In this document: in pieces, positions 9,077 to 62,888 of the stretch
How the letters are laid out: the number at the start of each line of letters is the position of its first letter
Numbering within the stretch: the first letter of the stretch is position 1
Assembly (NCBI GenBank): GCA_051294375.1
Contig: CM119266.1
Coordinates: 3,352,030-3,416,029, forward strand
DNA length: 64,000 bases
Direction of reading: 5' to 3'
Source of the DNA: Paraspadella gotoi
Taxonomy: Eukaryota > Animalia > Chaetognatha
The notes under the pieces: generated by a model
Database searches by the model: none
Seen by the model: the letters and a program-made list of their open reading frames with translations, nothing else
What the model was told of the DNA's origin: nothing
Made by a program: the position numbers and the translations under genes

Positions 9077-9140
9077 AGGGGCAAAATAGCTTATTTATTA
9101 AATTAATGGATAATTTTTATATTGGTAGTACCAATATCAT
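9077..9140 (+). mobile_element. 3' fragment of the twister-bearing repeat (ribozyme core missing)
   Basis: GGGGCAAAATAGCTTATTTATTAAA...GGATAATTTTTATATTGGTAGTACCAATATCAT matches 11826-11888. Confidence 0.75.
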
Positions 9141-21315: not shown

Positions 21316-22641
21316 CCAACAAAGGGTTGAGAGAAAGTGAACAGTCAGAGGGCGAGAACAGCTGAAGTTTTGGTTCAGATAGAGAGATACAGGAGGGAAA
21401 AGAAAATAAAGGTCAAATGAGAAATAATGCAGAGGTAATGAATTTTACATTGAAATAATAAAAACTAAAAAGTAAAATAATAATAACAACAGGTGAAATA
21501 AATAATAGTTTTGTAATTTGTTAATAATGAAAGGAAAATTGAAATTTGTAAGTAAAAGGAGAAAGGTAAAGAAAGAAGCTCAAAGTGAGCAAAACAATTG
21601 TTCGAAACATGTCTGCCTCTTTAATAAACAAGCAGAACAGCTTTTAAACCTCAGATTCTCTGATAATGTTCCATAATTGCCCGGGCGCAACCCCCCCCCA
21701 TTTCCAACCCCCCTGGCCCCCCCAATTGCCAACCCCCAACCCCCTGGCCCCCCCCTAACCCCCCTGGCCAGTGGCAACCACAACCTCTGGTTTGGGGTCG
21801 GCGGAAGTTCGTCCGGCGCCGAATCCTGGCGCCGCAATTTCCCGTCGGCGCGGATCCGGCAGAACACGACGGCGCTGACGACGACGATGACGAAGAGGAC
21901 GACGCTGACCAGCACGACGATGACGAGCAACTTGTGTTCCTGAAGGAAGATGGATTAGAAATTAGAATTTGGATTAGAATTTGAATTAGAATTAATCACG
22001 GAACATCTTTTTTAAATTAGAATGATGGATAATTTTTATATTAGATCTACCAATTTTATTAGTTATAATTATCATTAAATGACGATCTTGGATCTTATGT
22101 TCTCTCTCTCGCTCTCTCTCTCTCTCTTTCTTCCTTTGCTCTGACTCTTAACCTATTCATTTGGTACTGAAGATAATGTGTCCAAAAGATCCAAATATTG
22201 GTCATTAATAAACATTGTACCTGTACTCCCATGTGTAATCTTTAACTAATTATCGTTATTAGTTATAACTATTATAATTAGTTATAATGGTTATTATTAG
22301 TTTTAATTATTACTACTATTATTAAATCCAAGTAAATATTCATCGCGAAAAAAATACAGTCACGTCTCTCTCTCTGGTCTTGTTTCTTATATCTTGTTTT
22401 ACGCAGCAACGGCACGACGTATTGTTAGATTTCTATTCAAGTATTACATAATAAATTAATTTTAATTTTAATCATTAGTGGTCATTAATTTTATTTGATA
22501 TTCAATATATGGATATCCTTAGCATTAATTATACCTCCAAGACCAGGTAAAAAAGACGAAGGACGAGAAAAAACGTTTTCAATTCTTCGGATTTGATCTC
22601 GCCTCCAGTTTTGCTTTCAGTTTCGCCTCCGCCCATGGCGC

Positions 22642-23850: not shown

Positions 23851-23900
23851 GATTGAGGGAAAATTGGCCGATCGTACGCAAGGTAAACATCCACAATTTA

Positions 23901-23945
<45 letters not shown>

Positions 23946-24062
23946 AGAAGAGAGAGAGAGAGAAGAAGTTAAACTTTGAAAACAATAGTACCCCCATATT
24001 TTTTTCACAAAAATATTCTACTCTTATATTCTGCTTGAAGAAGGATAAAAGCTGCTCTCTCT

Positions 24063-24128
<66 letters not shown>

Positions 24129-24414: not shown

Positions 24415-24481
<67 letters not shown>

Positions 24482-26489: not shown

Positions 26490-26520
<31 letters not shown>

Positions 26521-27094: not shown

Positions 27095-27128
<34 letters not shown>

Positions 27129-27140
27129 AGAGAGGAGAAG

Positions 27141-27176
<36 letters not shown>

Positions 27177-27744
27177 TGTTCTTGTTTTTCTAGTTATGCT
27201 CATCATTTCATTTTCATTTATTTACATTTATCTATAATACGATAATATTTGAATAACTTTTATAAAAAATATTAAGTACCTTCTCTTTCAAAATACAAGA
27301 TATGATGAAATACCAAAGAAAGAAAGAAAGTAAGAGAGCAAGAAATAAGGAAAAGGAAAAAAAGAAAAAGAAAGAAAAAAAGAAGAAATAAAGAAAAAAA
27401 AGAAAAGAAAAGAAAAAGAAAGAAAAGAAAAGAAAAGAAAGAAAAGAAAAGAAAGAAGAAAGAAGAAAAGAAAGAAAAGAAGAAGAAAAGAAAAAACCGA
27501 AAAGGTAAGGTCGAAGTAAGGACGCCCGGCCCGCTCGGCCCGTATCCGTCGGGGAAAGAATGTTTTGTTTACGATTTCCTCGTTGGTTCTCGATTGTTCA
27601 CTGTTATCCACGAAGTTCGGACGCGCGAGCTCAAACTTTTTTTTTCCTTTTTATCTCAACTCCTTTTTCCCCCTTTATTTACACGTCTCGCATCTTTTCT
27701 CTCTCATTTTCTTTTCTCTTTTCCTGGCTAACTGTTTTCGCCAA

Positions 27745-27817
<73 letters not shown>

Positions 27818-28570
27818 AGATCACAGCCTTTTGCACAAAACCCTAATGTTTTAGATTAAATAAATAGTTATATGCTTTATTAAGGACCACTGCGGAGATA
27901 ATAAAAATTTCGAATATTAGCAAAGTTTTTTTTAGTTGTCTTTGAAATTTATTTAACAATCATTTAAAAAAAAAAATTACATTATATGTCTTGATAAATA
28001 TATTAAATGTTACTCATCTCTTTTTTCGTATTTAAATTTTTTTTTCAGGAATCTGAAATTTTCGATGGATTCTGATAGAGCAAATAAAAGTTAAACAAAG
28101 AATATAATTACAGCTTTTAAAAATTTCTACGCTTTTTAAGTAAAAATATAAAAAACTGATAAAATTATCGAAAGATGATGATGATGACGATTTTATCGTT
28201 TTTTTATATTTTGACTCACTATTTTAAAAATGAATTATACTTTGTGTAGACAACTTTTTATGAGCCTATTATCTGAATCTTGTCTTAAAAGTTCTCAAAA
28301 TTTTTTTGGCCTTCCTATTTATAAATAAATATAAAAAATATATAAGAAATTTTGTTGTCCATTGAAAGTATACTTAAAAATGTATAAATTTTCGTTTGAG
28401 CAATTACTCATTCTAAATTTTTGACTCACCCCCATTGTGTGGGGCACCCCTAGCTTTAGCTTAAGCTCTTAGTAGTTTTTCACGAATACTAAATAGCCTT
28501 TGATATATCCGATTATGAAAGTATATTGGTGAATACTGAGAGACAGTAATTATTGTATGTGTTAGTGACA

Positions 28571-28743
28571 AACCGTTCAATATAAGCAGTCCCTGAGCTT
28601 CGGATCAGGCTGTAAACACCATGTTACAGGCGGGTTATGCGCCCCGTCCTCTTTAACTGCCAGACGACACGGGCAAGAACCCGGACTTTTGGTTGGGAGG
28701 CGAATGACTTGCCTCCGGCACCAATGGCCGCTGATGAACGGTT
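28571..28743 (-). mobile_element. tRNA(Gly-like)-headed SINE-like element carrying a twister
   Basis: The head (28731-28663) has A-box-like TGGTGCCGGAGG, TCGCCTCCCA (as in the tRNA-Gly-CCC anticodon arm), B-box-like GGTTCTTGCCC and an acceptor-stem-like pairing. The whole unit is bracketed by the 9-bp inverted repeat AACCGTTCA/TGAACGGTT. Confidence 0.65.
28586..28660 (-). ncRNA. Type-P5 twister ribozyme variant inside a tRNA-headed element
   Basis: GCAGUU AAA GAG GA CGG GGCGCA UAA CCC GC [P3 CUGUAACA/UGUUUACAG] CCUGA UCCG AA GC UCAGG GACUGC. Pairings: P5 6 bp, T1 CCG/CGG, T2 GC/GC, P4 5 bp. Predicted cleavage is 28637/28636. Confidence 0.72.
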
Positions 28744-29954
28744 GGTGGATTTTAGTCCACCATAATACTTATATTCGCTATTGAAATAGTATGTACATGT
28801 ACATTGTACATATAAAGGCTTTAAATATATGGCTTTATTGTATATTTACAATGTTACCTATAAAAACATAAATTAAGGCTAAACTTATTACATGGCGATG
28901 AGAAGGCGACACATGTTTATTTGTTTATAGACGGCCATAGATAAGCGGCGCAGCGGCAGCGGCAGCGAGCAGCGGCACCCGCAGCCGCAGCGAAAGTCAA
29001 GTTAGAAACGCAGGCAGACTGCAATTGCACAGAGGGAGTTCACTCAAGAAACTTACGGGACCAGATTGAAATTCGTTCAGATATCTATACTATATTATAT
29101 TAAACCAATTTATGAACCGTTATCCAGAATTCAAACTAATGCCGCTCTAATCCTCTCTCATTCTAATTCCTAAGTTTTTAGACCTTAATTAATTAAGGCT
29201 TAATGGCAGGACCCCTGCACTAATCACTAACCTGTGCCTTGGATGACTAAATAACTTTAATGACTAAAAGACTGAACACTTCAAATTCATTTATAGCATT
29301 TTATGACTGAAAGACTAAATGACTGGATTCTATTCAAGTCGTCTAATCACACTTAGAATAAATACAGTAAATATTGTATCATCTGCGTTTAAGTTTATAT
29401 ACAAAATTTAGGAAAATAACATATTAAAATATAGAATAACGAAAAGTCATTCATAAAACTTATCGTGCGGCTTTCGATCGGGTTTTTCGTGCGACCGAAA
29501 TCTCTATCGCCTCACCTCCACTTCTCTCCTTTTCAATCATGAACTTACCTTTTTTCACTCTCTTATTATATTCCTTTTCTTACTGTTTTTTTGCACCTCG
29601 ACGAACTTGTTTTCCGACGGCATCAATATGAAGCCTTACTCGTCTTTGTTTTAGTCTTTAACTTACCTCTGCTCACCACCAACTTAATTCGAACGAGACT
29701 CGCCCTTCTTCCATTTCAAGAATGAGAAACCGGTTTATGGCGACTGTCGACCGACAGCAACAACAACAACAACAGCGAACAACACGACAGGAAATCAGTT
29801 TTGGTCAAACTTCTAATTTTTTCGACTTGAAAAAATTGTTTCCTCAGTTTTACTGACTCTTAAATTCCAAAAGTAGAAATCGTCTTTCCCGTGACGTTAA
29901 CAGACATTTTTCTGTTACGGACTTTTTTGGATCGATCCGAAAAAAATATAAAAT

Positions 29955-30315
29955 TTAAAATGATGCAAGTTGAAAAATGATGCGAATTTGAAAAATTATG
30001 CAAGTTGAAAAAATGATGCTAAGTTGAAAAAAATGATGCGAATTTGAAAAGATTATGCTAATTGAAAAATGATGCAAGTTAAAAAAATGATGCGAGTTAA
30101 AAAAACAATGCAAGTTGAAAAAAATAATAATAGTTAAAAAAAATATTTTTTTTACCATAGTAAAACAGTTCAGTTTAATCCTTGTAAGCGATTTACATGT
30201 ATTGGCGCAACCATTGGTTTTGGTTGTACGATGATATAGTTAGGATCTATATATGATAGCTGATTACAGCTTAATTATCGTAGGCAGATCCGATATTATA
30301 TTTGCTGAACCTTGT
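29955..30315 (+). mobile_element. 3' part of the Helentron/DINE-1-like family, with ~19-bp tandem array
   Basis: AAATGATGCAAGTTGAAAA units followed by GCTGATTACAGCTTAATTATCGTAGGCAGATCCG...CTTGT, homologous to 5905-6173. Confidence 0.6.
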
Positions 30316-30530
30316 TGAATTTAGATTCCAAACTATAATTTTATTTAACTTTTAATTTAACGCCTTTGTCGGACTTTGATTGAATTCAAAATTAAACATC
30401 CGACAATAAAACTTAAATTCTAGATTCAAACTATCGTCGTCGTCCTTTTCGCCTCGGATTAAATCAAATATGGCCGACAAATTCTTGATCAAAGTCTTTT
30501 GGAATGAGTTTCACTCTCTCTCTCTCATCT

Positions 30531-30563
<33 letters not shown>

Positions 30564-30726
30564 TCTCTTCTCTCTCTCTCTCTCTCTCTCGTCTCTCTCA
30601 TCGCTTCCTCCAATATGGCGACCAACGCCGACGTTCTCAAATTCCGAATTACTGGAATAGTGTTCCAGCTTCCGTCCGATGGCACCGGATTTGCTGCGCT
30701 GNNNNNNNNNNNNNNNNNNNNNNNNN

Positions 30727-31406
30727 CCTCTCCTTGACTGAAAGTAAGAGAGATTTGTTACCCGAAGTACCAAAAAGTTTGCAAGTACAATATTTTAGAA
30801 CAGTTTAACTTTAAACCTAACAACTTCAAACTGAATAATATTGATATCAAAATTTAAATTTTACTCAAACAAATGTTTAGCCTACCAAATATTTTTGGTA
30901 TGAATTTTCTTTTGCAATATTATTTACTGGCAATATGGCATTTAGAATATAGTATAATTATATTTATATATATAAAGGAAGTATATATGAGTAATTATAT
31001 ATATATATATACTAAAATTTTTATATTTTTATAGAAAGTAATTGCATATTGAAGTAAATCATATATTAATAAGAAAGAATTCAAAACAAAAATACTTTGA
31101 TTAGCATATGAAACATAACAATTGTAAAAATGTAAAAATGAAAAAGCCATATTCTAAATTTTTATAAAAATCTATCCGTAATTCGTAGTAGTTTTTATTT
31201 AAAATAAAAACAAAAAAAAAACTCTAAGAAAAAGGCGTGACGCCGACGGACAACGACGACGTTCACAAAGAAGCAAAACAGATCCAAAATCGTCTGGCGA
31301 GATAAAAAAAGAAATAAAAAAGAAATAAAAAAAGAATGTTTTTGTTATTTTTCATGTCGCACGATGACGCGAGGTTGCGGGGGCGATCAACGGAAAAAAC
31401 GTGGGA

Positions 31407-31445
<39 letters not shown>

Positions 31446-31796
31446 TTTGCTTCCAACATTTAATCTCTTAAAAAATCAGACCAACCTTTCCTTTTTCCAC
31501 CAAACAAGCTTACCTCCCTCCAACTGGTTGCTTGCTCGTAACTCGGAGGGAGTGGTTCCGCTTGTCCAGAGAGTTGGAGGCGAGACTTCCGGCGACTTTG
31601 TTTTTGAAGCTGTTGTTGAGGGATCGGTTGAGGGATGTCGACCTGAAGAGAGGAAGGAGGCCGAAGAGGTTGTGGAAGGGTGAGCCGTTAGGGTCAGAAG
31701 AGAAGCCGAGGGTGGAGAAAAAGGTTAATATATAATAGTGAGTGTAGAGAATTTGAGAAACAAAAATTTATTTGATAATAAAATAATAATAATATA

Positions 31797-31839
<43 letters not shown>

Positions 31840-32039
31840 TAATAATATAATAATATAATAAATAATAATAATAGACTTGTTAGTTTTCCTTTCTTTTTCG
31901 TTGGTGTATGATTTAGAGACAGAAAAAATTGATTTTCAAAACGAATTGTTTTTATTAAAGATGCAGACATGTTTCGAATAATTGTTTTGTTCATCATCAG
32001 TGCATTTAGACAATTTGAAATACAAAACTTTGCCAAGTC

Positions 32040-32079
<40 letters not shown>

Positions 32080-32279
32080 AGAAGAGAGAGAGAGAGAGAA
32101 GAAGAAGAGAGAGAGAAGAGAGAGAGAAGCGAGCGCGTAGAAAAACCCAAGGGCGGACCAGGAGAAAAAATGTCTCGGCGCCAAATTTGAAAATGGTCCC
32201 TTGGAAAATTTGGAACATGAAAGCCGTGTTCAAAGTGGCCCTTCAAAGTGGCCCAGCTGTGTACAAGGCATTAGCGCGG

Positions 32280-32367
<88 letters not shown>

Positions 32368-35300
32368 CTTCCAACAAAGGGTTGAGAGAAAGTGAACAGT
32401 CAGAGGGCGAGAACAGCTGAAGTTTTGGTTCAGATAGAGAGAGAGCAGGAGGGAAAAGAAAATAAAGGTCAAATGAGAAATAATGCAGAGGTAATGAATT
32501 TTACATTGAAATAATAAAAACTAAAAAGTAAAATAATAATAACAACAGGTGAAATAAATAATAGTTTTGTAATTTGTTAATAATGAAAGGAAAATTGAAA
32601 TTTGTAAGTAAAAGGAGAAAGGTAAAGAAAGAAGCTCAAAGTGAGCAAAAAACAATTGTTCGAAACATGTCTGCCTCTTTAATAAACAAGCAGAACAGCT
32701 TTTAAACCTCAGATTCTCTGATAATGTTCCATAATTGCCCGGGCCACCCCCCCCATTTCCAACCCCCTGGCCCCCCAATTGCCAACCCCCAACCCCTAAC
32801 CCCCGCTGGCCAGTGGCACCACAACCTCTGGTTTGGGGTCGCGGAAGTTCGTCCGGCGCCGAATCCTGGCGCCGCAATTTCCGTCGGGCGCGATCCGGCA
32901 GAACACGACGGCGCTGACGACGACGATGACGAAGAGGACGACGCTGACCAGCACGACGATGACGAGCAACTTGTGTTCCTGAAGGAAGATGGATTAGAAA
33001 TTAGAATTTGGATTAGAATTTGAATTAGAATTATGGATTAATTGTGATATATTTTTATATTAGATCTACCAATTTTATTAGTTATAATTATCATTAAATG
33101 ACGATCTTGGATCTTATGTTCTCTCTCTCGCTCTCCTCTCTCCTCTCTTCTTCCTTTGCTCTGACTCTTAACTATTCATTTGGCCTGAAGATAATGTGTC
33201 CAAAAGATCCAAATATTGGTCATTAAATAAACATTGTACCTGTACTCCCATGTGTAATCTTTAACTAATTATCGTTATTAGTTATAACTACTATTATTAG
33301 TTATAATGGTTATTATTAGTTTTAATTATTACTACTATTATTAAATCCAAGTAAATATTCATCGCGAAAAAAAAAAATACAGTCACGTCTCTCTCTCTGG
33401 TCTTGTTTCTTATATCTTGTTTTACGCAGCAACGGCACGACGTATTGTTAGATTTCTATTCAAGTAATGGAGTAATGGATTGGACCTTAAACACCAAAGC
33501 CTGTCCAAAGTCAGGGCAAGATAGCTTAATTTATAAATGAATGGATAATTTTTTATATTGGTTGTACAATTTCATAATAATTCAGCTCCTTGTATTTTGA
33601 TGGCTAGTGCGGATAACAATAAGTATTCCCGGCGATCTAATACTTAAGGGAGTGGTCTTTTTCATACAATTGAAACATTCTTTGAATATTCTTCGCACTT
33701 CATGCATAGGGAAGCCAGCTGTACTGCTGGGATGTGAATAAACGAGACTGTGAGAGAGTCTTGATTGAAAGCTTGCAGGGAACCTGCTATGTCAATTATC
33801 TTGTAAGAGTGATGGAGCATTAAACCAGCCACAAGCCTGTCCAAAGTCAGGGGCAAGATAGGCTTATTTATTAAATGATGGATACATTTTTATATTGGTT
33901 GTACCAATTTCATAAAATTCAGCTCCTTGTATTTTGAATCTAGTGCGGAGTACATAAGTATTCCCCACGATCTAATACTTAAGGGAGTGGTCTTTTCATA
34001 CAATTGAAACATTCTTTAAATATTTTCCACTTCATTGATAGGGAAGCCAGGTACTCCTGGGAGTGAATAAACGTAGACTGTGAGAGAGCTTGATTGAAAG
34101 CTTGCAGGGACCTGCTATGTCATTATCTTGTAAGAGTGATGGAGGCCTAAACCACGCAAAGCCTGTCAAAGTCCGGGCAAGATAGCTTATTTATTAAATG
34201 ATGGATAATTTTTATATGGTTGTACCAATTTCATAAAATTCAGCTCCTTGTATTTTGATGCTAGTGCGGAGTACAATAGTATTCCCGATCTAATACTTAA
34301 GGGAGTGGTCTTTCATACATTGAAACTTCTTGAAAATTTTTCCACTTCATTGATAGGGAAGTCAGGTCTCTGGGAGTGAAATAACGAGACTGTGAGAGAT
34401 CTTGATTGAAGCTTGTCAGGACCTGCTATGTCATTATCTTTAAGAGTGATGGAGGCCTTAACCACCAAAGCCTTCCAAAAGTCAGGGGCAAGATAGCTTA
34501 TTTATTAAATGAATGGATAATTTATATTGGTTGTAGCAATTTCATATTAAATAATTTTAATTTTAATGCATGTAGGGTTCATTAATTTATTTGAATTCAA
34601 TATATGGATATCCTTAGCATTAATTATACCTCCAAGACCAGGTAAAAAAGACGAAGGACGGAAACAAACGTTTTCAATTCTTCGGATTTGATCTCGCCTC
34701 CAGTTTGCTTTCAGTTTCGGCCTCCGCCCATGGCGCTGTTGTTGTTGTTGTTGTTGTTTTGTTGTTAACCGTCAGCGATGGTGAAAGCAAAAAGTAAGAA
34801 AGAAAAATCCAAGACGAAGGAACGAAAACTGAACTTCATCGTTCGCCACGATTTTCACTGACTTTGGGGCGACGTTCGTAAAATTTGTTGTATAAACAAA
34901 CTGATACACTTAAGTCATTAAATTGTTTTTTTTCTTTTTTCAGCTTATATGTGTCATGTTTTTTCGTGTTTTTTTTTAATGTGGAGAAAATGTTTAGAAA
35001 AAAAATCCTTAACGAAGGATTTAACTCAAATTTTAGACATTTTTTTTTTTTAGTTCAAATTTATCTTTCTTCCCTTTTTTTGTAATTCGATTTGTATCTT
35101 TCTTGAAAAGTATATTATTTGTTTTTGTTTTTTTTATTTTTCTTCTTTTGCTGAGAAACTCGCGTGATTTCGTTTATCCTTCTGTTTTTGTGAATCCGCG
35201 AGATTAACATGGCGGCCGTGAGTAGAGAACGAGAACGAGAGAGAGAGGAGAGGGAAGAGAGGGAGAGGAGAGAGAGAGAGAGCCCGAAAAGTGAGAACAG

Positions 35301-35401
35301 AGGCTGAACAAGAAAAGTCACGGGGCAGAAAAGCAGCGAACTTCGTCGTCGTTTTCGTCGTCGTCGTCTTCATCATCATCGACGTCGTTATCTCTGACGA
35401 G

Positions 35402-35447
<46 letters not shown>

Positions 35448-35656
35448 TCCTCCCCCTCAAAAGGTCCGTCGTCGGGGTGACTCGGGGCGTGGGCGTGAAG
35501 GAAATACGGTGAATTGTAACCGGTCATGAATGGATGAAAATGAACGAAAATGGACGAAAATGGACGAACTGAGCAAGAAAAAAGGGATAAAAAAGAGGGA
35601 ATGCGATGACGACCTGGAAACGAAAAAAGGGAAAAGGTGGGATGTTTGCTGAGTAT

Positions 35657-35711
<55 letters not shown>

Positions 35712-35888
35712 AGAAGGAGAGAGAGAGAGGAGAGAGAGAGAGCTTCCGATTTATGCTACTTCACGTCTTTCGTTCGTGATTTTCATTCATGAGCTCATAT
35801 CTTTTTTTTTAAGATCAGAAAGACAAATGAGAGGAATGAATGAAATGAACAAAGAAAGGATTGAGAAAAAGTGAATGAGTGAATGACC

Positions 35889-35954
<66 letters not shown>

Positions 35955-36005
35955 AATTGAGGGAAAAATTGGGCGATCGTACGCCAAGGTAAGACATCCA
36001 CAATT

Positions 36006-36077
<72 letters not shown>

Positions 36078-36186
36078 AGATTAAACTTGAAAACAATAGT
36101 ACCCCAGTCCATATTTTTTTCAGCAAAAATATTCTACTCTTAAATTCTGGCTTGAGAAAGGATAAAAGCTGCTCTCTCTCCTATCT

Positions 36187-36243
<57 letters not shown>

Positions 36244-36317
36244 ATTATTTTCACAAAGCCTCCACTTTCTTATTCTTTCTTCCAAATTCCTGAATTTGTT
36301 TCGACTTAAAAAAAAAA
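30727..36317 (+). repeat. Partial noisy copy (B) of 19884-24190, bounded by N-gaps
   Basis: Colinear with copy A, with many 1-nt indels. It starts after a 25-N gap and carries an extra ~1.08-kb array. Confidence 0.9.
33464..34545 (+). mobile_element. ~320-bp tandem repeat (3.3 units, 4 twister motifs); retrozyme-like
   Basis: AAGAGTGATGG recurs at ~33805, 34132 and 34442, with a degraded copy at ~33466. Each unit contains the twister motif with P5 extended to TATCTTGT/GCAAGATA. The array is absent at the homologous sites ~22443 and ~47641. Confidence 0.8.
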
Positions 36318-39138
36318 NNNNNNNNNNNNNNNNNNNNNNNNNNNNNNNNNNNNNNNNNNNNNNNNNNNNNNNNNNNNNNNNNNNNNNNNNNNNNNNNNNN
36401 NNNNNNNNNNNNNNNNNNNNNNNNNNNNNNNNNNNNNNNNNNNNNNNNNNNNNNNNNNNNNNNNNNNNNNNNNNNNNNNNNNNNNNNNNNNNNNNNNNNN
36501 NNNNNNNNNNNNNNNNNNNNNNNNNNNNNNNNNNNNNNNNNNNNNNNNNNNNNNNNNNNNNNNNNNNNNNNNNNNNNNNNNNNNNNNNNNNNNNNNNNNN
36601 NNNNNNNNNNNNNNNNNNNNNNNNNNNNNNNNNNNNNNNNNNNNNNNNNNCCTCCGGATCTTGATCTTGATCGAGGCCGTTCCATTTACTTTTCGGATTG
36701 TCTTTTCTAAAACTATTGTAAACTATCTCTTTAGGATTCTAGACTTCTTTCACACGAACGAATTTTGATGGAGGCCTTAAAACCGACCATACGCTCTGTC
36801 TCAATTCGTCAGGGGCACAGATTAGCTTACTTTTACTTAAATGAATGGGATAATTCTTTTATATTGGTTGTACCCAATTTCTCAATTCCAAAAGTTTGGA
36901 ATTAGGGGCGGTTCCTATTTCTCCGGAAACATCATCGTGATCGGCCCCGCTCTCTCCTCCCCCGCCCCTCCCCACCCCCGGCTTGGGGTAATTATAGCAA
37001 GGCACGGAGAAGTGCTCTTTTCTTAAAAAAGCTGGAAAGGGTAGATCGCTCTTGGGCAGCTTCAGATTTTCAACACTTACTTCTCTCTTAAACCATTTCT
37101 CGATGATAATTCAACGTGAGTCATCCACGATGGTTTTCGTCGGTTTAAGATACGTGAAAAAAAAATTTTGTTTACTCGATTGTGAACACGTGATGGATTC
37201 GAGCCTCTTATGAAAAATTACAGTCATTTTTTTTTCTCTCAGCGTAACGCACACATCACACCCCTCGCTATCATCGCTTCGTATCTTAACCAAAAACATC
37301 TTTGCTTACTTCATACTCAATACTCTTCCTCACCATTTCTTTCCTCCTTCTTTCCCCGTAACGTCTGTGTTTTTCCCCACCCACACCCTAACCAGTAACA
37401 CACCCTCTCTCTCCATCTCATCCTCCTTCTTACTCTCTAACTCTCGTCTCCCTCTCTATCTGAGGATTCGCCTCGGCCGGATTGAGCCTTCGAATCGTTC
37501 GTCGAAGTCGACCGCCGTTCCAATACCACGAATCCGATAAAATTATTTAATTTTTTTTCCGTTTTTTTTTCCTATTCATTTTGGTTTTTCCGTTTTTTTT
37601 TTTAAACTTCCCCTTTTTTATCATTAAATTATTTTTTTTCCCCAAACGCGTTGCTTGTTTGAATCGTCATCGGTATTTTTGTTAGTAACATCTATCGTTG
37701 AAATCCCTCTTTCGATCCAATATTAATTGTTCAAAACAATCAGTCAATCTCTTTCCCATATTGACACAATGTTTTGCTACTTGTTACGATTTTCAACTCG
37801 GCCCGCTTTTTTTCACATCCTTAGGTCCATTCATTTTTCATCCACTAACCCCCTCACCACCCTCTTCTACCCTCCTACCACCCTCACCAACCTTAATGAT
37901 CTCACTCCGTCTGCACCCACCCTCGTTACCACCCTGCACCACCCTGTCTAACCACCTCTAACCACCGTCTGCCACAACCTTCCTCCTTCGAATTTTAATA
38001 AAATTCTCTGTAAAAAACCGAGAGCAGTTCCCACTTTCCACTACTCTGACCTCAACAGACATCGCCCCTTCCAATATTCACATCTGGCCCAACTCGCTCC
38101 AGCAGTTAACCCCGCCCCTTTGTTCCAAATACTGCCGCCCCCTCGCTCCTTCCAAACAATCACAGCCAACGTTCAAATCAAACAATCCTTCCGACTCGCT
38201 CAACATTCCCCTCCCCTTCGCTCCAACACCTATCCCGCTTTCTCACCGTTTGCTTTTCCTTTTGTGTTTCTTTGTCCGGACGAGTTGATGTACTGGTTGA
38301 TGTTGAGCCAAAGGAGCCGTGACTCTGTAATGATTGGGCGCGAGAGGAGAGTCGAAAGTGTCCGGTTGGGCTTGAAGAAGCATCACCCTGAATGAGTACA
38401 CTCAAATTTCATTTGTTACAGTTACTCACCGATACTTATACACTGCGCCCAAAAAAAGGTAGCTCTCCTCTTTCACAGCTTAACATTAAACTATCGTATA
38501 ACATATTTTTATTAAACCGTTTTTTTTTTCAGCGAATCAAAGCTTGTTGTTTATATATATATATATATGTGTGTGTGTATAAATCTCTTATGATTTTGTA
38601 AGGGATATTACCATTAAATAAAATTTAATTTTGCTATACCCCTGTTTATGCTAAATTTTTTTACAGAAACTGTGCGACATAATATAATATAAACCATTAG
38701 AGTGGAGGGATCGAAAAAATTAAGTCTATCATTGGGCATTCTTAATAAAATGTTATAAATGATTTTGTTCTCTCTCTCTTGTCCTGTGTCCTCTCTCTGT
38801 CTCTCTCATCTGTCTCTCTTTGTGTTCTCTTTGTGTCTCTATGTCTCTCATTCTCTGTGTCTCTCCTCTCTCTTTGTCTTCTCTCTCTCCCCCATCTCTC
38901 TCTCTCTGCTTTTAAAGCCCTCAAGTCCTAAAGCCGCAGTAATTAATATTGTCTATTTTCTATTTCTCTCTCTCTCTGTCTCCCCTCTCTGTGTCTCTAT
39001 CTGTGTCTGCTTTTTTTTTTGTCTTACTCTGTCTTCTCTCCGTGTCTCTCTCGGTCTCTCTTTCTCTCCCTCCAGCTTTTGAGTGGGAAGGTTTTAATTT
39101 GGCATAATGTCGCCTCCGCGCTCACTCTCTCTCTCTTT

Positions 39139-39190
<52 letters not shown>

Positions 39191-39688
39191 CGTTGCCACC
39201 CGAAAACCACGTTTTCCATCCGACGACCGAAACAATTCCGATGATGAAGAGGGCGACGGCCGACGCCGACGGACGCCGACGACGACGACGACGACGGAAA
39301 CCCGAGAGACTCGAGCGACGGTGGCCGACTTTCGAGTCGACACAAGGATATAACGAAAGCGAAAAATGCCGGCGAACGACGACGAACGATGACGTGCTTT
39401 TCGTGCCACGACGGGTCACATGGCAGCGCCATCAATCGCCGAAAAGAAATGACGACGTGACAATAGAATCGGGTTACGAAAGGACTTGAAACGTGACGAA
39501 TGATCGAATCAAAAAAGAATCAGGTGCCAAAGCCGTTCGTGACAAAGGCGTCATTTGACCTGATATTGGCCGACAAAGAATCTTAGGGGATGGCATGGGA
39601 AGACGCGACGAGGCAGTTGAACATCCAATGTTCCAGGGCGGGGGGAAGGTCGCCGCCGCTCGGTCGTTGGTTCGACTTGTCGATCGAG

Positions 39689-39789
<101 letters not shown>

Positions 39790-40515
39790 CGTGGAAAGTG
39801 GCGTCCGAAAAAAATTGGTTCTTCCGTTGCCCGTCAGAGGCGAAGAATGATTAAAGTGAATCATTGTTGCTGTTGTCGTTGTTGTTGACGCTGTTATTGT
39901 TGTAGTTATTGACGGAGAAACCCTCATCAGCTTATGGAATCAAGACTCTGCGGATTAAAAATCTTGTCGTCGTCTTCTTCTTCATATTAGATTGATTCGA
40001 GCCACCGTTGGTGCCTCGTTGTTATTGTTATTCTCTGTCCTTATTCGCGTTATTTATCGTCTTGCAGCTCTTATTCACGTCAGAGTCTTTGAAGTGCGCT
40101 GACAATCGGAGGGACGACGAACACTTGCGTTGGAACAGGATGGGAGCCTTTGGGGGGGGGAACTGAGAAATAAGAAATAATGGAAGAGGGAAGAAAGAAA
40201 TGCTGTAGAAAGGAAATAGTGAACTCGGAGGCCTGGATGAGAATGACTTATAGGCATCATTGAGTTACTTATCTAAAAGTGCAATAGACTAAGTCTAAGT
40301 AAAATTGTGTTAAAGATAATCTTTGAATCTAGTGGGCCTTTAATTCAGTGGGCCTCCAATGTTCATTTAGGGGTTGTCACGTCGTTTTTTAGTCATGAAT
40401 TAAGGAAACCAAAACTCTCTCACGATTGTAAATTGATTGTGATTTAGCTCTAAATTTCATTCTCATACACAAATTATTTTTTTAGAGAAAAAAAAACGGT
40501 AAAAAAAATTTAAAG

Positions 40516-46539: not shown

Positions 46540-48372
46540 AGAGGAGAGCAGAGAGAGAGAGAGCTTCCAACCAAAGGGTTGAGAGAAAGTGAACAGTCAG
46601 AGGGCGAGAACAGCTGAAAGTTTTGTTCAGATAGAGAGAGAGATAGAGGAGGGAATAGAAAATAAAGTCAAATGAGAAAATAATGCAGAGGTAATGAATT
46701 TTACATTGAAATAATAAAACTAAAAAGTAAAATAATAATAACAACAGTGAAATAAATAATAGTTTTGTAATTTTTAATAATGAAAGGAAAATTGAAATTT
46801 GTAAGTAAAAGGAGAAAGGTAAAGAAAGAAGCTCAAAGTGAGCAAAAAATGTTCGAAACATGTCTGCCCTCTTTAATAAACAAGAGAACAGCTTTTAAAC
46901 CTCAGATTCTCTGATAATGTTCATAATTGCCGGGCACAACCCCCCCCATTCCAACCCTGGCCCCCCAATTTCCGCCACCCCAACCCCCCTGGCCAGTGGC
47001 AACACAACCTGGTTTGGGGTCGGCGAGTTCGTCCGGCGCCGAATCCTGGCGCCGCAATTTCCGTCGGCGCGATCCGGCACGCAACACGACGGCGCTGACG
47101 ACGCGATGACGAAGAGGACGACGCTGACCAGCCACGACGATGACGAGCAACTTGTGTTCCTGAAGGAAGATGGATTAGAAATTAGAATTTGGATTAGAAT
47201 TTTGAATTATTTGGATAATTTTTATATAGATCTAGCCAAAATTTTAATTAGTTATAATTATCATTAAATGACGATCTTGGATCTTATGTTCTCTCCGTCT
47301 CCGCTCTCTCTCTCTCTTTTCTTCCTTTGCTCTGACTCTTAACTAATTCATTTGGCCCTGAAAGATATGTGTCCAAAGATCCAAAATAGTTGGGTCATTT
47401 TAATATAACATTGTACCTGTACTTCCCATGTGTAATCTTTTAACTAATTATCGTTATTAGTTATAACTACTATTATTAGTTATATATGGTTATTTATTAG
47501 TTTTAATTATTCTACTATTATTAAATCCAAGGTAAATATTCTCGCGAAAAGATACGGTCACGTTCTCTCTCTTGGTCTTGTTTCTTACATCTTGTTTTAC
47601 GCAGCAACGGCACGACGTATTGTTAGCTTTCTATTCAAGTATTACATATTAAATTAATTTTAATTTTAATCATTAGTCGTCATTAATTTTATTTGATATT
47701 CAATATGATATCCTTAGCATTAATTATACCTCCAAGACAGGTAAAAAAGACGAAGACGAGAAAAAACGTTTTCAATTCTTCGGATCTTGATCTCGCCTCC
47801 AGTTTTGCTTTCAGCTTTCGCCTCCGCCCATGGCGCTGTGTTTGTTGTTTTTGTTGTGTTGTTGTTGTTACCGTCAGCGATGGTGAAAGCAAAAAGTAAG
47901 AAAGAAAAAATCCAAGACGAAGGAACGAAAAACTGACTTCATCGTATCGCGACGATTTCACTGTACTTTGTGGGCGACGTTCGTAAAATTTGTTGATATA
48001 ATACAAACTGCATACACTTAAGTCATTAACATTGTTTTTTTTTTCTTTTTTCAGCTTATATGTGTCATGGTTTTTTCGTGTTTTTTTTTTTAATGTGGAG
48101 AAAATGTTTTAGAAACAAAAAAATCCTTAAACGAGGATTTAACTCAAATTTTAAGACATTTTTTTTTTGTTTAAGTTCAAATTTATCTTTCTTCCCTTTT
48201 TTTTGTAATTCGATTTGTATCTTTTCCTTGAAAAGTATATTATTTGTTTTGTTTTTTTTTTTATCTTTTCTTCTTTCGTGAGAAAACTCGCGTGATTTCG
48301 TTTATCCTTCGTGTTTTTGTGAATCCGCGAGATTAACATTGGCGGCCGTGAGTAAGAGAACGAGAACGAGAG

Positions 48373-52885: not shown

Positions 52886-53648
52886 CACAGCCTTTTGACA
52901 AAACCCTATGTTTTAGATTAAATAAATAGTTATAGCTTTATTAAGGACCAACTGCGGAGATAATAAAAATTTCGAATATTAGCAAAGTTTTTTTAGTTGT
53001 CTTGAAATTTAATTTAAGCAATCATTTTCAAAAAAAAAATACATTATATGTCTTGATAAATATATTAAATGTTACTCATCTTTTTTCGTATTATAAATTT
53101 TTTTTTTCAAAATCTTGAAATTTTTCGATGGATTCTGATAGAGCATAAAAAGTTAAACAAGAAATATAATTACAGCTTTTAAAAATTTCTACGCTTTTTA
53201 AGTAAAAATATAAAAAACTGATAAAATTATCGAAAGATGATGATGATGACGATTTTATCGGTTTTTTTATATTTTTGACTCACTATTTTAAAATGAATTA
53301 TACTTTGTGTAGACAACTTTTTATGAGCTATTATCTGAATCTTGTCTTAAAAGTTCTCAAAAATTTTTTTGGCCTTTCCTATTTATAAATAAATATTAAA
53401 AAATATATAAGAAATTTTGTTGTCCATTGAAAGTATAAAAATGTAAAAATTTTCGTTTGAGCAATTACTCATTCTAAATTTTTGACTCACCCCATTGTGT
53501 GGGGCTACCCCTAGCTTTAGCTTAAGCTCTTAGTAGTTTTTCACGAATACTAAATAGCCTTTGATATATCCGATTATGAAAGTAATTGGTGAATACTGAA
53601 GAGACAGTAATTATTGTTATGTGTTAGTGACAAAACCGTTCAATATAA

Positions 53649-53722
53649 GCAGTCCCTGAGCTTCGGATCAGGCTGTAACACCATGTTACAGGCGGGTTAT
53701 GCGCCCCGTCCCTCTTAACTGC
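53649..53722 (-). ncRNA. Type-P5 twister variant (duplicate of 28586-28660)
   Basis: GCAGUU AA GAGG GA CGG GGCGCA UAA CCC GC CUGUAACA UGG UGUUACAG CCUGA UCCG AA GC UCAGG GACUGC, with a perfect 8-bp P3. It follows a tRNA-like head at 53797-53725 (acceptor GCGGCCA/TGGTCGT). Confidence 0.75.
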
Positions 53723-55608
53723 CAGACGACCACCGGGCTAGAACCCCGGACCTTTGGGTTGGGAGGCGAATGACTTGCCTCCGGCACCAATGGCCGCTGA
53801 TGAACGGTTGGTGGATTTTAGTCCACCATAATACTTATATTCGCTATTGAAATAGTACATGTACATTGTACATATAAAGGCTTTAAATAATTATGGCTTT
53901 ATTGTATATTTACAATGTACCTATAAAAACATAAATTAAGGCTAAACTTATTACATGGCGATGAGAAGGCGACACAATGTTTATTTGTTTATAGACGGCC
54001 ATAGATAAGCGGCAGCGGCAGCGGCAGCGGCAGCGGCACCCGCAGCCGCAGCGAAAGTCAAGTTAGAAACGCAGGCAGACTGCAATTGCACAGAGGGGAG
54101 TTCACTCAAGAAAATTACGGACCAGATTGAAATTGTTCAGATATCTATTATATATTATATTAAACCAATTTATGAACCGTTATCCAGAATTCAAACTAAT
54201 GCCAGCTCTAATCCTTTATTCTAATTCCTAAGTTTTAGACCTTAATTAATTAAGGCTTAATGGCAGGAACCCCTGCACTAATCACTAACCTGTGCCTTGG
54301 ATGACTAAATAACTTAATGACTAAAAGACTGAACACTAAATTTCATTTTATAGCATTTTAATGACTGAAAGACTAAATGACTGGATTCTATTCAAGTCGT
54401 CTAATCACACTTAGAATAAATACAGTAAATATTGTATCATCTGCGTTTAAGTTTATATACAAATTTTAGGAAAATAACATATTAAAATATAGAATACGAA
54501 AAGTCATTCATAAACTCCTTCGTGCGGCTTTCGGATCGGGTTTTCGTGCGACCGAAATTCTATCGCCTCACCTCCACTTCTCTCCTTTTCAATCATGAAC
54601 TTACCTTTTTTCATTCTCTTATTATATTCCTTTTCTTTACTGTTTTTTGCACCTCGACGAACTTGTTTTCCCGACGGCATCAATATGAAGCCTTACTCGT
54701 CTTTGTTTTAGTCTTTAACTTACCTCTGCTCTACCACCAACTTAATTCGAACGAGACTCGCCCCTTCTTCATTTCAAGAATGAGAAACCGGTTTTATGGC
54801 GACTGTCGACGACAGCAACAACAACAACAACAGCGAACAACACGACAGGAAATCAGTTTTGGTCCAAATTCTAATTTTTCGACTTGAAAAAATTGTTTCC
54901 TCAGTTTTACTGACTTTAAATTCCAAAGTAGAATCGTCTTTCCCGTTGACGTTAACAGACATTTTTCTGTTACGGACTTTTTTGGATCGAATCCGAAACA
55001 AAAATAAAAATTTAAAATGATGCAAGTTGAAAAAATGATGCGAATTTGAAAAATTATGCAAGTTGAAAAAATGATGCAAGTTGAAAAAATGATGCGAATT
55101 TGAAAAATTATGCTAATTGAAAAAATGATGCAAGTTAAAAAAATGATGCGAGTTAAAAAAACTATGCAAGTTGAAAAAATAATAATAGTTAAAAAAAATA
55201 TTTTTTTTACCATAGTAACAGTTCAGTTTAATCCCTTGTAAGCGATTTACATGTATTGGCGCAACCATTGGTTTGTATGGTACGATCTGATTACAGCTTA
55301 ATTATCGTAGGCAGATCCGATATTATATTTGCTGAACCTTGTTGAATTTAGATTCAAACTATAATTTTTATTTAACTTTTAATTTAACGCCTTTTGTCGG
55401 ACTTGACTGAATTCAAAATTAAACATCCGACAATAAAACTTAAATTTAAGATCAAAACTATCGTCGTCGTCCTTTCGCCTCGGGATTAAATCAAATATGG
55501 CCGACAAATCTTGAATCAAAAGTCTTTTGGAAAGTTTCACTCTCTCTCTCTCTCTCTCTCTCCTCATCTCCCTCTCTCTCTCTCTCTCATCTCTCTCTCC
55601 TTCCCAAA

Positions 55609-60100: not shown

Positions 60101-62888
60101 TAATTTTTACTCATAATTATTAATAAATATAGTTAACTAACTTTTTATAAAACATAAAATTTAGAAATAAACTTACCAAAATATTTTATAATCTTTATTT
60201 TTATATTTTCAAAAGCTCATATAATTTTATAAAATTTTAATAATTTGATTTATCATAACTTATAATGGTTTTGTATTTTATAACAATTTTATATACATTA
60301 AAAAACCGTCATTTCGGACAAGAAAGATAAAATTATAAAAAAATGGTCATCACCATCAATTCTACAGACTACATTACACTAAAATAGCTATGTACCTCAC
60401 TTGATTTGTTATATTTTGTTATTTTTCAACGCTCTAGTAGTCGGCATAGCAAAGTTCACCCCGCCTCTTAGCATGAATCCTTCAGTCGTGACCCGGTGGC
60501 TCATTGAGTAAAGCCATCAGCTCATGACCACTAGGTACCGGGTTCAATCCCAACCCGGTACCTACTTTGCGGGAAGTGTGAGGACGGCCGTAAGCCGCCT
60601 TGGGGGCGTGGAAAACCCTCAAGCCTGGTTCCAAGCCCAGGACCCGTTCGATAGCTGCTAGAGGGGTTATAGAAGTTACGGAAAGTCATCTTCAGCCCAC
60701 TTAGCGCCTTATCCACAATTCAATCAATCGAATTCGTCAATCAATGAGTCAAAAAATAAATCTCTCTATGAATCTCTTAATCAATCAACATCTTAATCAA
60801 ATCAATCTCTTAACCAATCAATCAATTAATTACGAAAATAATTTCTTAATAAATCTTGTAGACTAACTAGTGACTGGAAATCTATTCTTCTAAAGAAAAA
60901 ACATAATAATTAAACAATTCAAATAATTAATAAATAATTAAACAATTCACTCAGATATCCTGTCCCCCTGATGAACGACGTGGACACCAACCTCCTGCGC
61001 AACCCGCTTCCCAAAGGCATCCTCCGCCTTCACCTCATCGACGCCGTCAACTTGAAGTTTCTTGTCAAGGCGGACCTTACGTGGCGGCCAAAGTGGGCGA
61101 CAGAAGAAAACGAGCACCAGAATGAGGTGGTTTTGGGAGGGGGTGAAGAGGGGGTAGGGGCTGTGATTGGGGGTTGTTTAAAGGGATTTGTTTGGGGTTG
61201 TGGAGGAGTTTGTTGTGGGGATTGTGTTTGTAGAGCAGATTATGCTGGGCGGTTGTGGTTGCGATAGCTTAAAGATTTGTTTAAGGGTTCGTGGTGTGGG
61301 TTGATTTAAGGATTTTGGTGAAGACTTTTTAAGATCGTGGCTAAGACAAGGTTTGATTTACGGATTTGGAGATTTAGATTTTGAGTGAGTTAAAAAGGTT
61401 TTCTCACATTGCCTGTCTGTATGTCTGTCAAAATAACGAGAAAGATTCCTCTCTCAGGACAACGAGGATCCAGTGTGGAATCAAATCCTGGAATTCGTGA
61501 TTTGGTCTTCGGAACAACAACTCGAAGTCTCCTTGATGGACGGGGACACCATGTTCGCCGACGCTGACGACCCGCTGGGGCATTACGAGATCAAGGTTGA
61601 TGGGGGGAAGTTGGTTGGCGTGGTTCGAGGTAGTTGGAGTGGTGGTCTCAATTGATCAATTTATTTTTTGATTGGCTGATTAATTTTTAGACTTTTTTGG
61701 CCGATTGATTAATTGATTGATACTTAGACTTTTTACTGATTATTTCAGTTACTAATTTTTTTTTATTTATTGATTGCTTGACTCATTGACCGATTAATTG
61801 ATTTTTTTGATTTTTTTGATCGATCGACGGAATTAATTAATTGATCGATCGACTGATTATTGATTAACCAACCGCTTGCCTCTTCCCTTCAGGTGGCCAC
61901 AGTCAAACGCCTCGGCTATCTTGCCCAAAGCGTCAAGCTCGAAGAGATGAAAGCCCACGACGCGCGACTCAACCTCCGACTCCTGTGGGCATCCTTCACC
62001 ACAGACTTGCAACTCGGCAAAGCTCATTGTCCCGATGAGAATTACAACAGGAGACTCTTGCTCTCCCAAAAGTCGGTGTCGTCGTCGTCGTCGTCGTCGG
62101 GGGGAGCTGGGTGTGTTAAGATGGGGTCGGGTGGGGTGGTTTGCGGAGGGTTNNNNNNNNNNGGGGGCAGAGTTGAAAACTGAAGGTGAGGGTGGTTTGC
62201 TTAATGGGGTCATCTTGCCAGACAAACATTTCTTTACCAAGTTGTCATTTACTACATTTCAATAAACTCATTCTCTCTTGTTGTTTTCCTCTCTTTCTCC
62301 ACTTCTTCCTTCTTTTCTTTTCCTCTTCCTCTCCTTTTTCCTTCTTTCCCATCCCTCCCTTCTCCTTATCTCGCCTCCCTCTAACTCTTCCCTCCTCCCG
62401 CTCACTCCCTCCCTCTCTCCCTCTCCCCTCGCAGATATCTCGATGCGGACGGGTACGACCCTCTACTCCAAAATGCTTCCCGCGCATTTCTCCTCGTTCA
62501 TCTTTACGCCGCAGAGAATCTACCGTCGGCGGCGGCGGCCAAAGCGGCGGGTGAGATCTCCAGAGCTTTGAAGGATGGACGGGTTGCCCGCTCGTGTTTT
62601 GTTTGCTAAGAAAAGAAAGAGTTAACAGGTTTATTCTAAAATCAATTATTAAAAAAAACTGTGGATAAGGAGCAAAGTGGGCTGAAGACTACTATCCGGA
62701 ACTTTTATTCCCCCTCAGCAGCAATGGAACGGGACTGGGCTTGGAACCAGGTTTGAGGGTTTTCCACGAAACGAAATTTTCGTGAAACAACAATGGAATT
62801 TTATTTAGATAAAATTGGACATTTCGCTCATTTCGAGCCTTCATCAGCATTTGAAAACCAAAAATAATTTTTCACAAACATTGAGTTG

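What the first reader, a model, noticed from the sequence alone, without database searches (positions are those of the whole stretch)
33464..34545. Twister-based retrozyme-like tandem repeat (~320-nt unit, one ribozyme per monomer)
Seen: 3.3 head-to-tail non-coding units each carry the twister. P5 is longest (TATCTTGT/GCAAGATA) in the tandem context because its 5' strand comes from the end of the preceding spacer. Established: animal non-LTR retrozymes and newt satellite 2 are tandem units of a few hundred bases with one hammerhead each, processed to monomeric or circular RNA. Inference: this is the same strategy with twister instead of hammerhead, so read-through transcripts would be cut into ~320-nt monomers with 5'-OH and 2',3'-cyclic phosphate ends suited to RtcB ligation and rolling-circle reverse transcription. 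I do not know of a described twister retrozyme but cannot search. The array sequence is noisy; the clean ribozyme is read from the copy at 11778.
Basis: partly seen in the sequence, partly recalled or inferred. Interest (0 to 1): 0.92.

Follow-up and report, generated by a model that had tools for sequence, protein, structure and literature searches.

The report
Twister-ribozyme retrozyme with Penelope-type footprint
A 325-base non-coding repeat that carries an unusual twister-type self-cutting RNA fold was pasted as one 3.3-copy block into an otherwise empty site of an animal genome, likely by the copying enzyme of a Penelope-type jumping gene, which would make it a twister version of the hammerhead "retrozymes", although cutting and RNA circles are untested.

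Summary
The array is real: 33467-34545 holds 3.3 head-to-tail ~325-nt non-coding units. Each unit carries a type-P5 twister fold; both pseudoknots pair through compensatory changes. It is a variant: P2 has three positions, not four, and P1 is a 6-nt palindrome. No array copy is clean as read; their majority equals the clean solo at 11778. New here: the array is one insertion into a site that is empty in two other copies of the segment, without target duplication. The two other significant copies end at the same base, 89 nt past the cut site, with variable 5' ends. That is the footprint of Penelope-like elements copying an RNA continuous across the cut site (circle or uncut multimer). Two tRNA-headed elements in the window and four published Naiad consensus ends carry the same variant twister; this scan noted twisters in Naiads before on other DNA. 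No genome, reads or RNA were available, so activity, circles, copy number and partner are inferred. No twister retrozyme was found in ten literature searches; the 2014 twister paper could not be read.

The parts
33467..34545 (+). One insertion: 3.3 head-to-tail ~325-nt non-coding units, 5'-truncated, ending at the family's fixed 3' end
33467..33488 (+). 5' junction: short stuttered copies of the bases just before the cut site; first ribozyme copy lacks P5 and P2 5' strands
33470..33523 (+). Twister copy 1 (partial; predicted cut after 33488)
33797..33860 (+). Twister copy 2 with P5 (predicted cut after 33821; read errors in the P1/T2 region)
34124..34184 (+). Twister copy 3 with P5 (predicted cut after 34148; read errors in P4/L4)
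34435..34495 (+). Twister copy 4 (predicted cut after 34459; read errors in P4)
34539..34545 (+). 3' junction: last 7 bases match the empty site at 6 of 7 positions; no target-site duplication; 0-6 target bases lost
22437..22449 (+). Empty target site, copy 1 of the host segment (AT-rich, holds ATT)
47635..47647 (+). Empty target site, copy 2 of the host segment
11778..11888 (+). Solo 5'-truncated copy with the clean twister core (predicted cut 11799/11800), from -22 to +89 relative to the cut
36766..36881 (+). Second, noisier reading of the same solo locus (inside the 11787-14076 / 36766-39189 duplication); not counted as an independent insertion
9077..9140 (+). 5'-truncated copy beginning at the end of P4, same 3' end
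22016..22059 (+). Weak, diverged 3'-end fragment (nhmmer E 0.034; paralogous reading at 33031-33078)
53590..53815 (-). Family B: tRNA-like head followed by the same twister variant (core 53717-53654, predicted cut after 53699); second reading at 28749-28531
60484..60715 (+). Family C: tRNA-like head followed by the same twister variant (core 60573-60646, predicted cut after 60591); 5'-truncated copy at 62770-62662 (-) with the same 3' end

Best explanation
This is a young insertion of a non-coding ~325-nt repeat with one variant type-P5 twister fold per unit, likely a twister-based retrozyme that borrows the reverse transcriptase and endonuclease of a Penelope-like element, probably of the Naiad kind. 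Shown: tandem units, the fold, the empty site, no target duplication, one fixed 3' end 89 nt past the predicted cut, variable 5' ends that never fall at the cut. [quoted passage not shown] Inferred step 2: because P1 is only a 6-nt palindrome, two copies probably pair through it and swap halves (a 'double twister', like the dimeric minimal hammerheads), so multimers would be cut efficiently and a monomer circle would be relatively stable. Inferred step 3: RtcB would join the monomer ends. Inferred step 4: the partner enzyme nicks AT-rich DNA, starts reverse transcription at the fixed internal site and runs back across the cut site for 0.14-0.35 or 3.3 unit lengths, which needs a template continuous across that site, a circle or an uncut multimer. 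Odds: twister-class fold 0.9; active in some form 0.65; Penelope-type mobilisation 0.75; Naiad specifically 0.5; circular template 0.5; dimer needed 0.45.
For: Insertion: flanks of the array are colinear with two empty copies; the three host copies differ by 0-3 isolated substitutions per 1.9-2.9 kb, so they are probably uncollapsed readings of one locus and the insertion is recent or polymorphic. Ends: 3 of 3 independent significant copies (array, 11776-11888, 9077-9140) end at model position 321 of 321, a weak fourth at 318; none covers only the other 210 nt of the unit. No TSD of 6 nt or more, only chance-level 5-mers, no poly(A) or microsatellite tail. Naiads are described with 5' truncation, partial tandems and mostly no discernible TSD (PMC8557442); the Poseidon enzyme cuts ATT in AT-rich DNA and starts internally 111-118 nt into an ORF whose ribozyme cut is at 26, i.e. 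about 85-92 nt downstream (PMC11167929), against 89 nt here. Fold: T1 3 of 3 WC pairs and T2 2 of 2 in families A, B and C with different letters (TGG/CCA, CGG/CCG, GGA/TCC; AC/GT, GC/GC), P4 4 of 4, exactly 6 nt between T1 and U(-1) in all three. That linker is self-complementary at 6 of 6 (A), 6 of 6 (C), 4 of 6 (B) positions, with double changes at both the outer and the central pairs; the central pair cannot form within one strand. Four of 54 Naiad consensus records show the same fold near their 3' ends, three with the same AAG junction and 3-position P2, all with 8-10-nt palindromes in the P1 region (read by eye). Units show 0 isolated substitutions in 57 testable columns, 3 in 132 with a looser filter. 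P1 is dispensable for twister cleavage (PMC5408937). Engineered tandem twisters give circles in mammalian cells and RtcB circularises retrozyme monomers (PMC7229834).
Against: No RNA, read or genome data. Rfam score below gathering threshold. P2 is 2 pairs plus an A.C mismatch, whereas the review describes four WC pairs and warns that changing their number may disturb the active site; T2 is AC/GT rather than the conserved GC. 0 of 4 array copies are intact as read. Circular folds of the three units are no more stable than shuffles (z 0.45, -1.15, -0.79), unlike the highly self-paired hammerhead retrozyme circles. No RT or GIY-YIG remnant in the window, so the partner is not seen. In vitro the Poseidon enzyme did not need its ribozyme and used unprocessed RNA, and 8 of 9 Xenopus retrozyme dimers did not cleave. 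The same twister variant sits in tRNA-headed elements, one with a microsatellite-like tail and a possible 7-nt TSD, so it is not exclusive to Naiads. The Naiad examples have a longer P1 region and, in three, a U.U at the third T1 position; no sequence homology to a Naiad beyond short motifs was shown. A 1-bp P1 with a 4-nt loop is sterically possible, so the dimer is not required by geometry. The unit has no recognisable promoter.
Confidence: 0.62

Rival explanations
1. A non-autonomous Penelope-like terminal-repeat derivative copied from an uncut linear multimeric transcript; the twister is a weak or protein-dependent passenger and no RNA circle is made.
For: Same DNA footprint. [quoted passage not shown] Non-autonomous Chlamys elements give multicopy head-to-tail insertions without canonical ribozyme. 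P1/P2 departures; ordinary circular folding energy.
Against: Catalytic-core letters and both pseudoknots are kept with compensatory changes in three families, which implies selection on the fold. A constant period of exactly one ribozyme-to-ribozyme distance fits a cleavage-defined unit.
Confidence: 0.22
2. A derivative of an RTE-type LINE or a SINE whose twister came from the LINE 5' end, as in Perere-3 of Schistosoma mansoni.
For: Twister variants with a relaxed P1 lie at the 5' end of Perere-3 (PMC8501958) and, by an unpublished statement, of RTE elements (PMC7761336); RTE 5' UTRs feed SINE bodies (PMC5786205); families B and C are tRNA-headed.
Against: In Perere-3 the TSD abuts the cut site and the ribozyme is at the 5' end; here it is in the last 110 nt, 0 of 4 5' ends fall at the cut, there is no TSD and no tail, and the unit has no A/B box.
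Confidence: 0.07
3. A 1.3-unit insertion that later grew to 3.3 units by unequal crossover or slippage (local satellite birth).
For: Proposed for vertebrate retrozymes (bioRxiv 10.64898/2026.07.22.740005); the 110-nt terminal redundancy would allow it.
Against: The empty site has no monomer and the insertion looks very recent; the first insertion would still need a template longer than one unit.
Confidence: 0.06
4. Assembly or read artefact: the array lies in a 5.6-kb piece between N gaps that repeats neighbouring sequence.
For: N runs at 30702-30726 and 36318-36650; indel-dominated 87-94% identity among host copies; no raw reads seen.
Against: Flanks resume within 6 bases of the empty site; two thirds of the unit occur nowhere else in the window; the 3' end equals that of independent solo copies; missed-adapter artefacts give inverted, not direct, repeats (own knowledge).
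Confidence: 0.03

Closest known systems
Metazoan non-LTR retrozymes (Cervera and de la Pena 2020, PMC7229834; Li, Clavereau and Pollet 2026, bioRxiv 10.64898/2026.07.22.740005)
   Same: Non-coding head-to-tail units of 150-450 bp, GC below 50%, one self-cleaving motif per unit, no LTR/PBS/PPT, proposed Penelope-like partner; some work as dimers.
   Different: Defined by a type I hammerhead; here there is no CTGANGA core in the array (0 of 49 window matches) and the motif is a twister. Circles shown there, untested here; this unit does not fold better than shuffles.
Twister ribozyme type P5 (Rfam RF02684; features from PMC5408937)
   Same: Order of strands, G-A before T1, U/A-A cut site, T1, T2, P4 with closing G-C and L4 U...A, open P5.
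   Different: P2 strands of 3 nt (2 pairs plus mismatch), P1 reduced to a 6-nt palindrome, T2 AC/GT, an extra conserved AAG junction; 25.8 bits against gathering 37.6. A phage P5 example (L002) has a long P1 hairpin and 4-nt P2 strand.
Naiad Penelope-like elements (Craig et al. 2021, PMC8557442)
   Same: 5' truncation, tandem insertions, mostly no TSD; reported to lack canonical hammerheads; 4 of 54 consensus records show the same P5-type twister fold upstream of the 3' end.
   Different: Autonomous, 3-4 kb, encode EN and RT; longer P1 region with two palindromes; 3' end about 170-240 nt past the cut in the three records where it was visible (counted by eye); many target (TA)n, whereas this site is AT-rich but not a microsatellite.
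Minimal dimeric hammerheads of Penelope-like elements and newt satellite 2 (reviewed in PMC6765202)
   Same: A helix replaced by a very short palindrome, tandem arrangement supplying the second copy.
   Different: Different ribozyme class; no dimeric natural twister was found in the searches run.
Perere-3 T-variant twisters of Schistosoma mansoni (PMC8501958)
   Same: Twister with compromised P1 in a retroelement, shown active there.
   Different: 5' end of an autonomous RTE LINE, TSD next to the cut site; not a tandem non-coding unit.
Sm-alpha SINE-like hammerhead retroposons (reviewed in PMC6765202)
   Same: Closest analogue of families B and C: tRNA-type head followed by a ribozyme.
   Different: Hammerhead there, twister here; the array unit itself has no tRNA head.

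Membership tests
Twister ribozyme, type P5 | Conserved G-A before T1 and A-A after the scissile bond (general base G, acid A) | tested here: met
   (solo and majority of array copies; families B, C)
Twister ribozyme, type P5 | Pseudoknot T1: three WC pairs | tested here: met
   3 of 3 in A, B and C with different letters
Twister ribozyme, type P5 | Pseudoknot T2: two pairs (usually GC/GC) | tested here: met
   AC/GT in A, GC/GC in B and C
Twister ribozyme, type P5 | P4 with closing G-C and 8-nt loop U...A | tested here: met
   4 of 4 pairs in A and C; B closes with A-U
Twister ribozyme, type P5 | P2 of four WC pairs | tested here: not met
   three positions, two pairs and an A.C mismatch (feature); same in B, C; 3 full pairs in two Naiad records
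Twister ribozyme, type P5 | P1 stem closed within the strand | tested here: not met
   6-nt palindrome only; P1 is dispensable in vitro
Twister ribozyme, type P5 | Rfam gathering score 37.6 bits | tested here: not met
   25.8 bits best
Twister ribozyme, type P5 | Self-cleavage at U/A | not testable with these tools
   needs in vitro assay
Non-LTR retrozyme | Non-coding tandem units of 150-450 bp, GC below 50% | tested here: met
Non-LTR retrozyme | Type I hammerhead in each unit | tested here: not met
   no hammerhead among 3 Rfam matches at E up to 10; no CTGANGA in the array
Non-LTR retrozyme | Dispersed mobile copies | tested here: met
   empty sites and truncated solos within the window; genome-wide number unknown
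Non-LTR retrozyme | Abundant linear and circular monomer RNA | not testable with these tools
   no sequencing runs obtained
Non-LTR retrozyme | Stable, highly self-paired circle | tested here: inconclusive
   z 0.45, -1.15, -0.79 on noisy units, pseudoknots not modelled
Penelope-like element mobilisation | Fixed 3' end, 5' truncation, tandem copies, no regular TSD | tested here: met
Penelope-like element mobilisation | Terminal sequence shared with an autonomous PLE in the same genome | not testable with these tools
   no genome held; none in the window
RTE LINE or RTE-driven SINE | Ribozyme at the 5' end with TSD next to the cut site; 3' repeat tail | tested here: not met

The most novel reading that the evidence does not exclude
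A natural twister retrozyme: its P1-less, short-P2 twister cleaves as a strand-swapped dimer paired through a palindrome, so that tandem transcripts are cut into ~325-nt monomers, closed by RtcB into stable circles and copied round and round into the genome by Naiad elements; the same 'double twister' is the ribozyme that Naiads were thought to lack and has also been captured by tRNA-headed SINEs in this genome.
Probability: 0.3. Interest if true: 0.88.

Novelty: new variant of a known kind. Interest (0 to 1): 0.74.

Why it matters
Retrozymes are defined by hammerheads. A twister version would show that the strategy (ribozyme-delimited unit, host ligase, borrowed Penelope-type enzyme) does not depend on ribozyme class, and would be a natural counterpart of the engineered tandem-twister circRNA systems. 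The variant escapes Rfam's threshold, so such families would have been missed by hammerhead-only screens. It offers a testable answer to why Naiads lack canonical hammerheads, and a first candidate for an obligately dimeric twister. The empty site and fixed 3' end give direct handles on how these repeats insert.

Tried and rejected
No genome for the window and no sequencing runs, so copy number, reads and expression are open. Motif scans for relatives: metagenome contigs gave 1 hit, L001, a chance match inside a bacterial coding region with no rest of the fold; viral contigs 0 hits for three variant patterns and 1 canonical P5 twister for a consensus-like pattern; prokaryote genomes 0 hits. 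Pfam on 15 of 90 ORFs of at least 110 aa found only host domains (BTB, SMP) and no RT or endonuclease; a six-frame motif scan gave one meaningless hit. The first, loose descriptor was not discriminating (5-16 hits per shuffle); only the strict one is, and it misses family B. Plain MFE folding gives no significance for the array or solo ribozymes (z -1.15, -0.75, +0.80; B -2.36; C -0.43). My first idea that the target primes by homology was weakened: the Poseidon study found initiation without homology to the cut DNA. A weak snoR26 match in the spacer (E 3.2) and the miRNA matches (GA/TC microsatellites) were rejected. ARAGORN found no tRNA gene, so the heads of B and C are called tRNA-like from a B box and folds only. 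Earlier scan notes: no look-alike by sequence, none on this genome. Roth et al. 2014 and Luense et al. 2017 were not held.

Full report
Context. The window is noisy, AT-rich animal-type DNA with microsatellites, intron-split host genes (BTB and SMP domains) and five N gaps. Large parts occur two or three times at 84-95% identity, with differences dominated by indels. No whole genome is held and no sequencing runs were obtained, so everything below rests on the window and on papers.

The array. TRF reports 33488-34546, 3.3 copies, 89% matches. Cut at the predicted cleavage sites the units are 333, 327 and 311 nt, 325 columns by majority, 86-90% identical, the same level as the neighbouring host copies (87-94%). 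There are 0 isolated substitutions in 57 testable columns and 3 in 132 under a looser filter, so the units may be identical in truth. No long ORF, no A/B box, no hammerhead core.

The ribozyme. Rfam's Twister-P5 model scores 25.8 bits at 11785-11827 and 18-19 bits at two array copies, below the gathering score of 37.6. Read against the features in the twister review (PMC5408937, section 11 and passages), the solo copy has G-A before T1, U/A-A at the cut (11799/11800), T1 TGG/CCA, T2 AC/GT, P4 CCTG/CAGG with closing G-C, and in the array a 7-8 bp P5. A strict descriptor hits 2 places in the window against a mean of 0.065 and a maximum of 1 in 400 shuffles. None of the four array copies passes as read, but at 107 of 111 positions at least three of them agree with the solo. 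Two departures are real: P2 has three positions (two pairs and an A.C mismatch) instead of four pairs, and P1 is only the palindrome AGGCCT.

Two more families carry the same variant. The descriptor scan revealed family B (53717-53654, minus; second reading near 28650) and family C (60573-60646; Rfam 16.3 bits), each behind a tRNA-like head. All three have an AAG junction before a 3-nt P2 strand, exactly 6 nt between T1 and U(-1), and fully paired T1, T2 and P4 with different letters. The 6-nt linker is self-complementary at 6, 4 and 6 of 6 positions (AGGCCT, GGCGCA, CGGCCG). The outer pair changes A-U to C-G and the central pair G-C to C-G; a central pair cannot form within one strand, which points to pairing between two copies (predicted duplex energies -9.3, -7.9, -11.9 kcal/mol). 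Three related families are a small sample, and a one-pair P1 with a four-base loop remains possible. The minimal hammerheads of Penelope-like elements have the same kind of palindromic stub and act as dimers (PMC6765202).

The array is an insertion. The host segment occurs three times; at 22443 and 47641 the site is empty, and the flanks of the array resume within six bases. The three copies differ by 0-3 isolated substitutions per 1.9-2.9 kb, so they are probably readings of one locus and the insertion is recent or polymorphic. There is no target duplication beyond chance 5-mers and no tail. The last seven bases match the target at six; the 5' junction is a short stutter of the bases before the cut site.

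All copies share one 3' end. A profile of the unit finds, besides the array, 11776-11888 and 9077-9140, both ending at model position 321 of 321, a weak hit at 22020-22056 ending at 318 (E 0.034) and one non-significant hit (E 2.4). The noisy second reading of the solo (36766-36881) was not counted. That end lies 89 nt past the cut. The 5' ends lie at about +45, +26, -22 and, after three turns, about -12; none is at the cut. A linear self-cleaved monomer would stop reverse transcription at the cut, so the template was continuous across it: a circle or an uncut multimer. The data cannot tell these apart.

Partner. This footprint matches Penelope-like elements: 5' truncation, partial tandems, mostly no TSD (PMC8557442, passages), and internal initiation about 85-92 nt downstream of the ribozyme cut with a preference for ATT in AT-rich DNA (PMC11167929, parts 1-2 of 4). 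The same paper found that the ribozyme was not needed in vitro, which supports the main rival. Earlier notes of this scan pointed to twisters in Naiad terminal repeats. I checked the published Naiad consensus file by exact-word searches and read by eye a P5-type twister in 4 of 54 records: those directly before the headers Naiad_Scon, Naiad_Mmer and Naiad-1_Chem, and one more in part 23 of the file. Three have the AAG junction and 3-position P2 (one shares a 9-base junction motif with this element, one has T2 AC/GT); all have 8-10-nt palindromes in a longer P1 region. This was not a systematic scan, and line breaks can hide words. No autonomous element is in the window. The RTE route (PMC8501958 passages; PMC7761336 passages; PMC5786205 passages) predicts a 5' ribozyme, TSD at the cut and a tail; none is seen for the array family, although family C may be LINE-driven.

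Comparison and novelty. It works like a non-LTR retrozyme (PMC7229834, part 2 of 6 and passages; bioRxiv 10.64898/2026.07.22.740005, parts 1-3 of 5) but fails the defining hammerhead test, and it is a twister-class fold that fails the canonical P1, P2 and score tests. Ten full-text searches and passages of PMC5680766, PMC10085705, PMC13725137 and PMC8782182 showed no genomic twister retrozyme, no twister in a Penelope-like element and no natural dimeric twister; PMC13725137 reports tandem ribozyme pairs in totiviruses. Roth et al. 2014 and its supplement, which list eukaryotic twisters, were not available and could reduce the novelty; supplements of the 2026 preprint are closed. The scan's own notes hold many hammerhead retrozymes with Penelope footprints and two twister-in-Naiad notes, but showed no tandem non-autonomous twister form.

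Verdict. Observation confirmed with small corrections; interpretation partly supported and extended. Best reading: a twister-based retrozyme mobilised by a Penelope-type, probably Naiad, enzyme (0.62). New variant of a known kind; interest 0.74.

Noticed in passing
window 53815-53590 (-) and 28749-28531 (-): Family B: tRNA-like head followed by the variant twister with an 8-bp P3; P4 closes with A-U; missed by Rfam even at E 10. A twister-bearing SINE-like element.
   Followed up: partly
window 60484-60715 (+) and 62770-62662 (-): Family C: tRNA-like head, variant twister, about 120 nt of 3' sequence, then an AATC-rich tract; possible 7-nt TSD (60473/60768); a 5'-truncated second copy shares the 3' end.
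   Followed up: partly
window 9141-9149: An inverted copy of the element's last 9 bases directly follows the 9077-9140 fragment (chance about 1e-5 at a given place): a tail-to-tail junction or fold-back at the 3' end.
   Followed up: partly
window 11787-30701, 30727-36317, 36766-55694: About 19 kb present twice and 5.6 kb a third time, separated by N gaps, with almost no substitutions: probably uncollapsed noisy reads of one locus rather than a true duplication.
   Followed up: partly
PMC8557442 supplement File S5, parts 8, 22, 23: Naiad 3' ends with a P5-type twister whose P1 region holds two palindromes, the second ending at the cut site.
   Followed up: partly
window 9521-11422 (-) and 16586-18337 (+): Long open frames of 633 and 583 aa with no Pfam match; probably host exons.
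   Followed up: no
window 234-1349: 22-bp minisatellite, about 50 copies.
   Followed up: no
window 59095-62000: Exons of an extended-synaptotagmin-like gene (SMP domain); family C lies in one of its introns on the same strand.
   Followed up: no
L002:151-235: Canonical type-P5 twister with a long P1 hairpin in a viral contig; used as a contrast.
   Followed up: no
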